Positions 5,611-63,598 of a stretch of DNA of 64,000 nt are shown in pieces. The DNA is from a virus. Taxonomy: Duplodnaviria; Caudoviricetes. The notes under the pieces are model-generated. The model saw only the letters and a program-made list of their open reading frames with translations, made no database searches and was not told where the DNA came from. Numbering within the stretch: the stretch's first letter is position 1; each line of letters starts with the position of its first letter. Where the stretch lies: positions 29,036 through 93,035 of the IMG/VR virus record IMGVR_UViG_3300032269_000703; one strand, given 5' to 3'. Position numbers and translations under genes: made by a program.

Positions 5611-6132
5611 ATGCACATTAACGTACCAGATCCATGGGATAAACACAAAAACCCATATATTAACCCACATGATCCGTGGGATAAGAAAAAAGAGTGGGAA
5701 AAACCTGCTCCACCAAAGATTATTACAATTAATGATCTATTTCCTCGTTTAGACCGCCTTTCTATTGGTTGGTCTCCACTTCTTGATCAACTCAAGGAGA
5801 TTACTAACAACAAGCCAAGTTACCCTCCATATGACATTGTTCAGATGGATGAAGAGACAAACCTACTCAACGTAGCTGTTGCTGGGTTTACTAAGAAGGA
5901 AGTTACTGTTACTGTAAAAGATTCAGCAATTACCATCGAAGGTAAGCAGAAAGAAAAGCAACGTGGCGAAGTTGTTTACCAGGGCATTGCTACACGGGAC
6001 TTTAAGTTGTCGCTAGCAATTGCTGAATACTGGGAAGTTACTAATGCTCTAATGGAAAACGGTATGTTGACTATTCAATTCAACAAGATCCTTCCTGAAG
6101 AGCTGAAGCCAAAGGTAATTGACATTAACTAG
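5611..6132 (+). CDS. Small heat-shock protein Hsp20/IbpA family
   Basis: SYPPYDIV, VAVAGF, YQGIATRDF, A.MENGMLTI motifs; AAGGAG SD. Confidence 0.93.
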   Translation: MHINVPDPWDKHKNPYINPHDPWDKKKEWEKPAPPKIITINDLFPRLDRLSIGWSPLLDQLKEITNNKPSYPPYDIVQMDEETNLLNVAVAGFTKKEVTVTVKDSAITIEGKQKEKQRGEVVYQGIATRDFKLSLAIAEYWEVTNALMENGMLTIQFNKILPEELKPKVIDIN

Positions 6133-6147
6133 TTTTTAATGTAGACT
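6119..6147 (+). promoter_or_regulatory. Sigma70/SigA-type promoter for the ncRNA cassette
   Basis: TTGACA (6119-6124) - 17 nt - TAGACT (6142-6147); predicted start about 6154. Confidence 0.75.
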
Positions 6148-6154
6148 AGGTATA

Positions 6155-6184
6155 CCACCTGAGCACGTGGACGTAAAACTGCTC
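6155..6184 (+). ncRNA. H-type pseudoknot at 5' end of ncRNA cassette
   Basis: S1 CCAC 6155-58/GTGG 6167-70; S2 GAGCA 6161-65/TGCTC 6180-84; A-rich loop ACGTAAAAC. Confidence 0.6.
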
Positions 6185-6187
6185 TTA

Positions 6188-6267
6188 GGGCTAGAAATGG
6201 TGTCGATTGCAGAACAAAGCCGCATGTCGGAGTCTGTAAGACCGCAGTTCAATTCTGCGCTGGTCCA
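6188..6267 (+). ncRNA. ssrA: Minimal tmRNA: tRNA-like domain only, no mRNA-like domain
   Basis: Acceptor GGGCTAG/CTGGTCC with G3:U pair and discriminator A; stemless D-loop ending GTCGA; P2 TTGCAGA/TCTGTAA; GAC linker; T-arm CGCAG-TTCAATT-CTGCG; CCA not encoded. Confidence 0.8.
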
Positions 6268-6272
6268 CGCTT

Positions 6273-6324
6273 GTAGACAAAGGAGCGTTTTAGCGGTCTA
6301 CCCGTCCTAGGCAACGGAATCTCC
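6273..6324 (+). ncRNA. Nested pseudoknot-like RNA between the two tRNA-like elements
   Basis: GTAGAC/GTCTAC, GGAG/CTCC, CGT/GCG, CCGT/ACGG pairings. Confidence 0.4.
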
Positions 6325-6326
6325 AA

Positions 6327-6397
6327 GGACTGGCGTAGCCATGGGCTACGAGTCGATTCGGTAGGTAGTAGTCGGTAGTGCAAATCTACACAGTCCA
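6327..6397 (+). ncRNA. Non-canonical tRNA-like cloverleaf
   Basis: Acceptor GGACTG/CAGTCC+A; CGTAGCC/GGCTACG stem; CGATT/AGTCG stem with 11-nt loop; T-arm GTAG-TGCAAAT-CTAC. Confidence 0.55.
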
Positions 6398-6413
6398 CGC
6401 ATGGAAGGAAAAT

Positions 6414-6587
6414 ATGCCAACGTATCAATACACGTGTAAAGAGTGTGACTCTACAATTAGTCACCTCATACCTATTAATGAACCATTAATAACTCCTAAA
6501 TGCCTGTCCTGTCAACAGGAAATGGAAAGGATATTTGCCGTTCCTAGTATTACATTTCGTGGTGGTGGTTGGGGCAGTAGCCGTTGA
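6414..6587 (+). CDS. FmdB-family zinc-ribbon protein
   Basis: MPTYQYTCKEC...CLSC..MERIF..P.ITFRGGGW; GGAAGG SD. Confidence 0.88.
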   Translation: MPTYQYTCKECDSTISHLIPINEPLITPKCLSCQQEMERIFAVPSITFRGGGWGSSR

Positions 6588-7027
6588 AGACATGCACTTT
6601 ATGCGGTATTGAGAAATCTTACGATCAATACACTAAAAAAAGCCGTAATAGGGATGGGTACATGGCTATGTGCCGTGAATGCTCTCTACCTAGGCGTCGT
6701 AAACAATATGAAGAAAATCCGGACTATCAAAGGAACGCAGTGAAGGTTCGTAAAGAAAATAATCGTGATCGCATAACACAGTACAAGATAGATAACCCTT
6801 GTGCTGATTGTGGTAAATTTTATCCTTCTTATGTGATGGATCTAGATCACGTACGTGGAGATAAGTTTAAAGGAGTATCTCAGCTAGTTTCACATAGCTG
6901 GGACGTAATAGAAACAGAAATTGCTAAGTGTGACTTAGTATGCGCTAATTGCCATCGTGAACGTACTTTTAAACGTTTAGGCACAACACAACTCGACTAC
7001 TACCATGAGGACTACCAACTTGATTAA
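6584..7027 (+). CDS. HNH endonuclease
   Basis: N-terminal CTLC/CREC; PCADCG..MDLDH..KCDLVCANCHRERT. Confidence 0.85.
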   Translation: MKTCTLCGIEKSYDQYTKKSRNRDGYMAMCRECSLPRRRKQYEENPDYQRNAVKVRKENNRDRITQYKIDNPCADCGKFYPSYVMDLDHVRGDKFKGVSQLVSHSWDVIETEIAKCDLVCANCHRERTFKRLGTTQLDYYHEDYQLD

Positions 7028-63236: not shown

Positions 63237-63598
63237 TGGATGGTTATTTAGAACCAACTCATCGTCTAGACTGGATGGATAAAGCTAGGTGTAAAGATAA
63301 AGATCCTACAACAGAGATTTTTTTTCCTCCTAGAGACAAAGCCAAGTACTCTAAACTAGCTACACAAGCTAAAGCAATGTGCTTAGGACCTAATAACACA
63401 AGTCCTTGCCCAGTTCGTAAAGAATGTCTGTGGTTTGCTGTAGAATCAGATGAGCAGCATGGTATTTGGGGTGGCATGAGCCACCGTGAACGCAATGCTT
63501 TAGTCAGGAAATGGCAACGTAAGTTCAAGGATCAGATGACCTTGAAGGAATATATATTTCAAATAGATAAGAAGGAATACAATAATGGCAGTAAGTAA
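63236..63598 (+). CDS. whiB: WhiB-family transcription factor
   Basis: W...A.C, FFP, AKAMC..CPVRKECL, GIWGG.S..ER. Confidence 0.93.
   Translation: MDGYLEPTHRLDWMDKARCKDKDPTTEIFFPPRDKAKYSKLATQAKAMCLGPNNTSPCPVRKECLWFAVESDEQHGIWGGMSHRERNALVRKWQRKFKDQMTLKEYIFQIDKKEYNNGSK

What the first reader, a model, noticed from the sequence alone, without database searches (positions are those of the whole stretch)
6327..6397. Second, non-canonical tRNA mimic
Seen: a 6-bp acceptor GGACTG/CAGTCC with discriminator A; a perfect 7-bp hairpin CGTAGCC-ATG-GGCTACG in the D position; a 5-bp CGATT/AGTCG stem with an 11-nt loop in the anticodon position; no variable loop; T-arm GTAG-TGCAAAT-CTAC. Like the mini-tmRNA it has GTCGA after the D region. 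The geometry is not compatible with normal decoding. Inference: a decoy for tRNA-targeting host toxins/nucleases or synthetases, or a diverged duplicate of the TLD.
Basis: partly seen in the sequence, partly recalled or inferred. Interest (0 to 1): 0.72.

Follow-up and report, generated by a model that had tools for sequence, protein, structure and literature searches.

The report
Anticodon-less tRNA-shaped phage RNA gene
A 71-base gene in a phage of freshwater actinobacteria encodes a folded RNA that resembles a tRNA at its top end but cannot read codons; dozens of related phages keep it more faithfully than the ribosome-rescue RNA next to it, so it is a real, uncatalogued RNA whose function is unknown.

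Summary

It is not a decayed tRNA. The same non-canonical element occurs in 31 IMG/VR contigs and in further lake metagenome contigs. There are at least five sub-types (64-83 nt).
- Shared by all: the acceptor GGRCUG/CAGUCC-A-C and a 7-nt T-like loop UGCRAWU, with G where tRNAs have U55.
- Variable: the two inner arms differ in sequence and length but stay paired through compensatory changes.
- The arm in the anticodon position has loops of 4-13 nt, so the RNA cannot decode.

ARAGORN and all 4227 Rfam models miss it.

The element occupies a tRNA slot. Closest relatives carry tRNA-Trp or tRNA-Asn at the same place. It usually lies about 58 nt downstream of a phage tmRNA, which in this genome is reduced to a tRNA-like-domain-only stub.

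The genome is a complete 93-kb WhiB-encoding myovirus with no canonical tRNA.

Function is unproven. My best guess is a mimic processed like a tRNA that engages a host factor reading tRNA acceptor ends (a decoy or competitor). Rivals are transcript punctuation and a role alongside tmRNA.

First readers of this scan had already noted the same element in another genome.

The parts
6119..6147 (+). Promoter-like site (TTGACA, 17 nt, TAGACT) at the end of the Hsp20 gene; the likely start of the RNA operon
   Evidence: Consensus scan, 10 of 12 matches. Both hexamers are conserved in all six aligned relatives (A1). Activity was not tested.
6188..6267 (+). Neighbouring tRNA-like-domain-only 'mini-tmRNA' (context only, not the finding): acceptor with G3-U70, discriminator A, canonical TTCAATT T-loop, no tag reading frame
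   Evidence: Read; fold; conserved in six loci with compensatory changes (A1). Relatives carry full tmRNAs at the equivalent place.
6271..6326 (+). Spacer: two hairpins (6273-6278/6296-6301 and 6302-6305/6314-6317) plus a pseudoknot pairing GGAG 6282-6285 with CTCC 6321-6324
   Evidence: Consensus fold with compensatory changes (A4). The pseudoknot pair changes GGAG/CUCC to AGAG/CUCU in L046 and L029. The same spacer precedes tRNA-Asn in L272 and follows tRNA-Trp in L273, so it is a generic inter-tRNA spacer.
6327..6332 (+). Acceptor-like stem, 5' strand (GGACUG)
   Evidence: Invariant except A3 to G3 in five distinct sequences.
6334..6350 (+). Arm I (D position): 7-bp stem with a 3-nt loop
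   Evidence: Compensatory changes C-G to U-A and G-C to A-U in A2. Replaced by unrelated stems of 5-9 bp in other sub-types.
6354..6374 (+). Arm II (anticodon position): 5-bp stem with an 11-nt loop; not an anticodon loop
   Evidence: G-C to A-U in 5 sequences and U-G/C-G/U-A alternation. Loop length is 4-13 nt across the family.
6375..6389 (+). T-like arm: 4-bp stem with 7-nt loop UGCAAAU (G at the tRNA position 55)
   Evidence: The stem covaries GUAG/CUAC to GAGG/CCUC, GGAG/CUCC and GUGGG/CCCAU in other sub-types. The loop is constant.
6391..6397 (+). Acceptor-like stem, 3' strand (CAGUCC) plus unpaired A; always followed by C, and CCA is not encoded

Best explanation
Window 6327-6397 (+) is a gene for a 71-nt, non-decoding, tRNA-shaped small RNA. 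It belongs to a family absent from Rfam that freshwater actinophages carry as a tRNA-type cassette in their tmRNA/tRNA islands.

Shown: the family exists; the four-helix fold is maintained by compensatory changes; the top half is sequence-invariant (acceptor GGRCUG/CAGUCC-A-C plus loop UGCRAWU) while the two lower arms are free to change; and the element occupies slots that relatives fill with ordinary tRNAs.

Inferred: it is transcribed from the promoter-like site at 6119-6147 together with the mini-tmRNA. Host tRNA-processing enzymes then cut it out (RNase P at the 5' end, trimming and CCA addition at the 3' end).

Most likely mechanism (inference; about 0.3 on its own): the mature RNA acts through its constant top half as a mimic. 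It would engage, and so titrate or divert, a host factor that reads tRNA acceptor ends and elbows, such as a defence toxin or a tRNA/tmRNA-handling enzyme. It would not act as a decoder.

The confidence of 0.4 is for the whole statement. That it is a real, conserved, non-decoding RNA gene I hold at about 0.9.
For: - Family size: an exact 23-mer of the 3' half occurs in 20 IMG/VR contigs. A looser pattern gives 31 contigs with about 29 distinct sequences in five or more sub-types. A lake-metagenome scan found 17 contigs.
- Structure: A2 has 98.4% of cells paired versus 23-41% for slid partners. In A3, 19 of 21 pairs change on both sides. All sub-types fold on their own as four-way junctions.
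- The constant top half is not a search artefact. All 14 hits of a pattern anchored on the 5' half, and all 13 element-bearing hits of a pattern anchored on the spacer, carry the same 3' half.
- Element identity between contigs averages 88%, against 73% for the adjacent tmRNA.
- tRNA-slot behaviour: L001 and L002 have tRNA-Trp at exactly this place, L272 has tRNA-Asn after the same spacer, and the 3' trailer CGC is shared.
- Not a decoder and not a known family.
- Accessory distribution: one copy in the complete 135-kb genomes, up to three in one contig, none in three 85-95-kb relatives of this phage. It is lost in L004 by a deletion between the two GTCCAC repeats.
- The genome is complete, with no tRNA genes. 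It encodes no SmpB, Ro60, CCA enzyme or RNA ligase, so any partners are host-encoded.
Against:
- No host tRNA with this acceptor stem was found in 401 Actinomycetota genomes, where matches sat at control level. So there is no identified molecule that it copies.
- No neighbouring gene hints at a partner.
- The junction linkers (1, 3, 0 and 1 nt) differ from those of a tRNA (2, 1, 4-5 and 0), so an L-shape is not assured.
- High sequence constancy could partly reflect recent horizontal spread of a cassette rather than selection.
- A3-U70 and G3-U70 both occur, so no single aminoacylation state is implied.
Confidence: 0.4

Rival explanations
1. Transcript punctuation. The element is kept only as a tRNA-like handle that recruits RNase P and the 3' tRNA-processing enzymes. 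These cut the polycistronic RNA, freeing the tmRNA or mini-tmRNA and creating the short 5' leader of the downstream mRNA. The excised RNA itself has no role.
For: - It lies between the mini-tmRNA and the Zn-ribbon gene, whose ATG is 16 nt after the element.
- Relatives have tRNA-Trp, or the mini-tmRNA end itself, directly before the same ribosome-binding site (A1).
- In L045 and L046 a small ORF is flanked by two family members.
- The conserved parts are those that RNase P and CCA enzymes contact (established knowledge).
Against: - Processing enzymes need an acceptor/T minihelix, not a fixed acceptor sequence or a fixed non-canonical loop. Yet both are invariant across sub-types whose T stems covary.
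- Arms I and II are maintained by compensatory change although they are dispensable for RNase P.
- A phage could use any tRNA for this purpose.
Confidence: 0.2
2. Partner in taking over ribosome rescue. The element works together with the phage tmRNA or TLD-only stub, for example by occupying alanyl-tRNA synthetase, SmpB or EF-Tu with a non-productive look-alike.
For: - Most copies lie about 58 nt after a phage tmRNA.
- In this genome, and apparently in Streptomyces phage BRock, a TLD-only element is followed directly by an RNA with the UGCAAAU loop.
- The top of the acceptor (GGACU.../...GUCC-A) differs from the neighbouring mini-tmRNA mainly at the 3:70 pair, and five distinct sequences do have G3-U70.
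- TLD-only RNAs are reported to inhibit tmRNA, perhaps by titrating SmpB (PMC4131195).
Against: - Some copies have no tmRNA nearby: L036 follows Hsp20 directly, and sub-type C follows an ORF.
- The spacer is generic, and RNA genes cluster anyway.
- No tmRNA model matches.
- The GAC linker and canonical T-loop that mark the SmpB-binding TLD are absent.
- The family was not found in the tmRNA or TLD-bearing mycobacteriophages Bxz1, DS6A and Wildcat.
Confidence: 0.15
3. Aminoacyl or other group carrier outside translation. The shared acceptor is an identity set for one enzyme that loads these RNAs, and the variable arms direct them to different uses.
For: - The acceptor and discriminator are invariant across sub-types with unrelated lower arms, as in tRNA isoacceptor identity.
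- A G at position 55 also occurs in tRNAs that bypass the ribosome, the staphylococcal cell-wall tRNA-Gly. This is from memory and was not checked here.
Against: - No candidate enzyme is encoded by the phage.
- The A3-U70 / G3-U70 polymorphism argues against one fixed synthetase identity.
- There are no data on charging.
Confidence: 0.07
4. A DNA-level element: a recombination or homing target that moves cassettes within tRNA islands, with the RNA fold incidental.
For: - Cassette swaps occur at exact boundaries, and L004 shows a deletion between the two GTCCAC repeats.
- The 3' half is identical in contigs whose flanks differ.
- A Cys-rich ORF that may be a nuclease lies 190 nt downstream (not confirmed).
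Against: Compensatory changes, G-U pairs that fit only the + strand, and length changes that preserve helices all point to selection on an RNA.
Confidence: 0.05
5. A decaying tRNA pseudogene.
For: A tRNA-Trp sits at the same slot in the nearest relatives. The genome has lost all tRNAs.
Against: - The flanks are 96-98% identical to those relatives, while the element shares almost nothing with tRNA-Trp. That indicates a swap, not decay.
- The same non-canonical form is conserved in 31 contigs, better than the tmRNA, and with covariation.
Confidence: 0.03

Closest known systems
TLD-only tmRNA (e.g. Mycobacterium phage DS6A; Hudson, Lau and Williams 2014, PMC4131195)
   Same: A phage-encoded RNA of tRNA size, with acceptor and T arms but no anticodon. 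In this genome it sits beside just such a stub.
   Different: The 3:70 pair is A-U in most copies. The D position is a long stem. There is no GAC linker, the T-like loop has G55, and no tmRNA model matches. The family was not found in DS6A itself.
Canonical tRNA (Rfam RF00005)
   Same: A four-helix cloverleaf outline, 64-83 nt. It occupies tRNA slots in phage tRNA arrays, has the same kind of 3' trailer, and CCA is not encoded.
   Different: It has a 6-bp acceptor plus a 4-bp T stem, a 7-bp D-position stem with a 3-nt loop, an 11-nt loop with no U33 or anticodon, no variable loop, and G55. ARAGORN and the Rfam tRNA model both miss it.
YrlA / bacterial Y RNA (Rfam RF02553) with Ro60
   Same: A non-decoding RNA that mimics part of a tRNA and is also found in actinophages.
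   Different: In YrlA the RNA ends form the Ro-binding helix, while here they form the acceptor. There is no model match and no TROVE/Ro60 gene in this genome.
Phage T4 stable RNAs 'species 1 and 2' encoded in the tRNA cluster (from memory; not checked here)
   Same: Small stable RNAs of unknown function, co-transcribed and co-processed with phage tRNAs.
   Different: They are longer, with no sequence relation tested. T4 infects enterobacteria.
Plant-virus tRNA-like structures with an upstream pseudoknot; mascRNA at the MALAT1 3' end (from memory)
   Same: A tRNA look-alike placed after a pseudoknot or used as an RNase P handle.
   Different: Those are cis parts of long RNAs in eukaryotic systems. 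Here it is a free-standing cassette in a DNA phage, and the pseudoknot spacer is generic.

Membership tests
tRNA (RF00005) | 7-bp acceptor stacked on a 5-bp T stem | tested here: not met
   6 Watson-Crick pairs plus a G-A apposition, then a 4-bp stem separated by one A.
tRNA (RF00005) | 7-nt anticodon loop with U33 and a triplet | tested here: not met
   11-nt loop here; 4-13 nt across the family, with no conserved triplet.
tRNA (RF00005) | D arm of 3-4 bp with a G18 G19 loop, and a T-loop with U54 U55 C56 | tested here: not met
   7-bp stem with a 3-nt loop; T-like loop UGCAAAU has G at position 55.
tRNA (RF00005) | Recognised by tRNA detectors | tested here: not met
   ARAGORN at default and relaxed thresholds; Rfam at E <= 10 on 81 nt.
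tmRNA tRNA-like domain (RF00023 clan; TLD-only forms) | G3-U70 with discriminator A (alanine identity) | tested here: not met
   A3-U70 in this copy and in most others; G3-U70 in five distinct sequences.
tmRNA tRNA-like domain (RF00023 clan; TLD-only forms) | Stemless D-loop analogue, GAC linker before a canonical T arm, and a model match | tested here: not met
   Stem in the D position, no GAC, non-canonical loop. The only tmRNA-clan hit is 7.8 bits against an 84-bit cut-off, and it spans the neighbouring element.
YrlA / Y RNA | Ro60 (TROVE) partner gene, and a Ro-binding helix formed by the RNA ends | tested here: not met
   No TROVE match in the complete genome; no model match.
The family defined here (models R1 and R2) | Acceptor GGRCUG/CAGUCC-A-C, four-way junction, 4-5-bp stem closing loop UGCRAWU, two variable lower arms | tested here: met
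   94.7 bits, E about 1e-22 with R1. Ordinary tRNAs in the same 375 kb do not score at E <= 10.
The family defined here (models R1 and R2) | The RNA is expressed, end-processed and CCA-tailed | not testable with these tools

The most novel reading that the evidence does not exclude
These RNAs are a set of anticodon-less adaptors. One shared acceptor/T-loop identity is read by a single host or phage factor, and the interchangeable lower arms give different specificities. Together with the phage tmRNA or its TLD-only stub, they would reprogram ribosome rescue or tRNA surveillance during infection.
Probability: 0.1. Interest if true: 0.85.

Novelty: new variant of a known kind. Interest (0 to 1): 0.6.

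Why it matters
Phage tRNA islands are usually read as codon-usage aids or as spare parts against anticodon nucleases. This family shows such an island keeping a tRNA-shaped RNA that cannot decode.
- It is conserved more tightly than the tmRNA beside it.
- Apart from a tmRNA stub, it is the only RNA gene left in a complete 93-kb genome that has lost every tRNA.

That points to a use of the tRNA top half that is independent of translation. The use is probably in phage-host conflict or in control of ribosome rescue, in the most abundant bacteria of lakes.

The family is small, well defined and easy to synthesise. A possible analogue exists in a cultured Streptomyces phage, so the question can be tested directly. 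It also fills a gap in Rfam and explains why tRNA finders miss these genes.

Tried and rejected
- ARAGORN at default, relaxed, mitochondrial and intron settings: nothing at this site.
- Rfam at gathering and at E <= 10: nothing.
- BLASTN of the gap and its flanks against 50,697 phage records: no match.
- Decay from the tRNA-Trp of L001/L002: rejected; it is a cassette swap.
- Copy of a host tRNA acceptor: a pattern scan of 401 Actinomycetota genomes stayed at control level with no tRNA-like hit. The scan of 185,579 species' genomes gave only chance matches among the 120 rows returned.
- Descent from tRNA-Gln. Three phage tRNA-Gln(UUG) genes share the acceptor, the loop and a UAGCCAAG stretch. 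However, the first two features were imposed by my pattern, and BRock's own tRNA-Gln genes are ordinary. I keep this as a lead only.
- The loop as a copy of the tmRNA resume region: no exact match in 11 phage tmRNAs.
- Cis-regulator of the downstream gene: rejected, because downstream genes differ between contigs.
- Protein-coding reading (minus-strand ORF 6249-6464): rejected. Lengths of 64-83 nt are not in steps of three, and the covariation is RNA-like.
- Phage-encoded partners: no Ro60, SmpB, CCA enzyme or RNA ligase. Neighbouring genes are uninformative.
- Family members in Bxz1, DS6A, Wildcat and LuckySocke: only ordinary tRNAs scored.
- One search used a badly formed pattern and is uninformative.
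- tRNAscan-SE is not available here.

Full report
**What is there**

Window 6327-6397 lies in a 281-nt gene-free gap (6133-6413). The gap sits between an Hsp20 gene (5611-6132) and a small Zn-ribbon gene that starts at 6414. The minimum-energy fold is that cloverleaf: -26.6 kcal/mol, z = -3.06.

ARAGORN finds no tRNA or tmRNA anywhere in the genome, and none at this site even at relaxed thresholds. None of the 4227 Rfam models matches, even at E <= 10 on the 81-nt stretch alone.

**The genome**

The window is part of a complete 93,035-bp virus record with direct terminal repeats.
- It encodes a terminase, portal, major head protein, tail sheath and baseplate, so it is a myovirus.
- It encodes WhiB, the marker used to assign freshwater phages to Actinobacteria (PMC6802176).
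- Its head protein is about 60% identical to that of Streptomyces phages BRock and LuckySocke.
- It encodes no Ro60, SmpB, CCA-adding enzyme or RNA ligase.

**Not a decayed tRNA**

I fetched relatives through the Hsp20 gene and aligned them (A1).
- L003 carries the same element with two substitutions.
- L001 and L002 have flanks 91-96% identical to the window. At exactly this place they carry an ordinary tRNA-Trp(CCA) that shares almost nothing with the element.
- L004 has neither. Its sequence runs from the GTCCAC at the end of the mini-tmRNA straight into the ribosome-binding site, as expected from a deletion between the two GTCCAC repeats that flank the spacer and element.

The slot is therefore a cassette site, and the element is one of its alternative fillings.

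**A family**

- The exact 23-nt 3' part occurs in 20 IMG/VR contigs.
- A looser pattern, filtered for the 5' strand, gives 31 contigs and about 29 distinct sequences.
- A lake-metagenome scan gives 17 contigs and two further variants.

Sub-types differ in the two lower arms:

| Sub-type | Length | Distinguishing feature |
|---|---|---|
| A (this copy) | 70-72 nt | Arm II loop of 11-13 nt |
| B | 64-67 nt | Arm II loop of 5 nt |
| C | 83 nt | Long arm I; T stem GAGG/CCUC |
| Single forms in L050, L098, L074 | varies | The L074 form has a 7-bp acceptor and a 5-bp T stem |

All sub-types fold on their own into a four-way junction.

Evidence that the structure is under selection:
- On the strict alignment A2, 98.4% of cells are paired, against 23-41% when partners are slid. 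Four pairs change on both sides.
- On the wider alignment A3, 19 of 21 pairs change on both sides. Caveat: A3 was fitted to the model, and one of its rows is a true BRock tRNA-Met.
- G-U pairs fix the + strand as the functional one.

**What is constant**

Three features are constant:
- the acceptor GGRCUG/CAGUCC;
- the unpaired A followed by C;
- the loop UGCRAWU, with G where tRNAs have U55.

This is not only an effect of how I searched. A pattern anchored on the 5' half returned 14 contigs, and all 14 carry the same 3' half. A pattern anchored on the upstream spacer returned 15 contigs. Thirteen have the element with the same 3' half; the other two have a tRNA-Asn or nothing at that place.

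Between contigs the element averages 88% identity, while the tmRNA next to it averages 73%.

**Context**

- Most copies lie about 58 nt downstream of a real phage tmRNA. The tags are AESRSAFALAA, ANTSAYALAA, AERTSAFALAA and ANSRSAFALAA.
- In this genome the tmRNA is reduced to an 80-nt tRNA-like domain with G3-U70 and no reading frame (6188-6267). That is the kind of molecule known from mycobacteriophage DS6A and reported to inhibit tmRNA (PMC4131195).
- The spacer between the two RNAs folds into two hairpins and a pseudoknot with compensatory changes. It is a generic inter-tRNA spacer.
- A conserved promoter-like site precedes the whole RNA block.
- Complete 135-kb genomes carry one copy. One contig carries three, of different sub-types. 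Three 85-95-kb relatives of this phage carry none.
- Streptomyces phage BRock has an unannotated TLD-like element followed directly by a 97-nt RNA with acceptor and GAGG-UGCAAAU-CCUC arms. This is a possible distant analogue; its interior fold is weak (z = -0.8).
- Bxz1, DS6A, Wildcat and LuckySocke gave only ordinary tRNAs.

**How it most likely works**

Shown:
- It is a conserved RNA fold in a tRNA slot.
- The top half is sequence-fixed and the lower half is free to vary.
- There is no anticodon loop.

Inferred:
- It is co-transcribed with the mini-tmRNA.
- RNase P cuts the 5' end; the 3' end is trimmed and CCA is added by host enzymes. The phage encodes none of these.

Invariance of sequence, not just of pairing, in the acceptor and loop points to recognition by a specific factor. 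The sub-types' T stems covary and their lower arms are unrelated, so the invariance is not simply shared ancestry of whole molecules.

The patchy, cassette-like distribution fits an accessory function. I therefore favour a mimic that titrates or diverts a host factor reading tRNA acceptor ends or elbows, at about 0.3.

Rival explanations:
- Transcript punctuation (0.2). It explains the position but not the fixed sequence or the maintained lower arms.
- A role alongside tmRNA (0.15). It explains the linkage, which may however only reflect clustering of RNA genes.
- A carrier RNA that some enzyme loads at its 3' end (0.07).
- A DNA-level recombination site (0.05).
- A tRNA pseudogene (0.03).

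A3-U70 and G3-U70 both occur, so alanine charging is neither required nor forbidden.

**What weakens the decoy reading**

- No host tRNA with this acceptor was found in 401 Actinomycetota genomes.
- There are no expression data.
- The junction linkers differ from those of a tRNA, so an L-shape is not guaranteed.

**Novelty**

Non-decoding tRNA look-alikes are a known kind; examples are tmRNA and its TLD-only forms, YrlA, and the T4 stable RNAs. This element fails the defining tests of each of these. It forms a family of its own that is not in Rfam 15.

First readers of this scan had noted the same element in another genome (e1-5788155, e1-5788168).

Noticed in passing
window 6188-6267: TLD-only 'mini-tmRNA': acceptor with G3-U70, discriminator A, canonical T-loop, an internal hairpin that covaries in relatives, and no tag frame. 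Relatives of the 135-kb class carry full tmRNAs at the equivalent place.
   Followed up: partly
window 6271-6326; L272:7160-7225; L273:3045-3110 (-): A conserved spacer of two hairpins plus a pseudoknot, with compensatory changes. It recurs after tmRNA or tRNA 3' ends and before the element, before a tRNA-Asn, or before nothing. It appears to be a generic inter-tRNA module.
   Followed up: partly
L004:3140-3170 versus window 6262-6410: L004 lacks the spacer and the element exactly between the two GTCCAC repeats (the 3' ends of the mini-tmRNA and of the element). This suggests cassette gain or loss through these short repeats.
   Followed up: no
L246:3043-3232 (-) = KX925554.1 about 97042-97231: Streptomyces phage BRock has an unannotated TLD-like element (G3-U70, GGAC linker, canonical T arm) followed directly by a 97-nt RNA with a UGCAAAU loop. 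The tRNA-Cys annotated on the opposite strand beside them may deserve a second look.
   Followed up: partly
L058:10598-10671 (-), L062:3794-3868, L071:10010-10084: Three phage-borne tRNA-Gln(UUG) genes called by ARAGORN have a UGCAAUU T-loop (G55) and the acceptor U-GGACUG/CAGUCC-A. This is an unusual T-loop for a true tRNA and a possible ancestor of the family.
   Followed up: partly
L045:9413-9697 (-), L046:6160-6420 (-): A small predicted membrane-protein ORF (about 80 aa) is flanked by two family members. In L046 the upstream one looks replaced by a fragment that keeps only the first 12 nt.
   Followed up: no
L046:5915-5947 (-); also L040 and L041 downstream of the element: A short hairpin ending in GAGUCC-A-C follows the element in several contigs. 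It repeats the end of the acceptor like a minihelix.
   Followed up: no
L040:1645-1822: A manA RNA motif (RF01745, 59.1 bits) lies between the element and a tRNA-Gly in a 135-kb actinophage genome.
   Followed up: no
window 6584-7027: A Cys-rich 147-aa ORF just downstream contains a DLDH...G motif that looks nuclease-like by eye. Pfam gives only a weak DUF7160 hit, so this is unconfirmed.
   Followed up: no
window 63272-63502: A WhiB-family gene (70.6 bits) marks this phage as an actinophage.
   Followed up: yes
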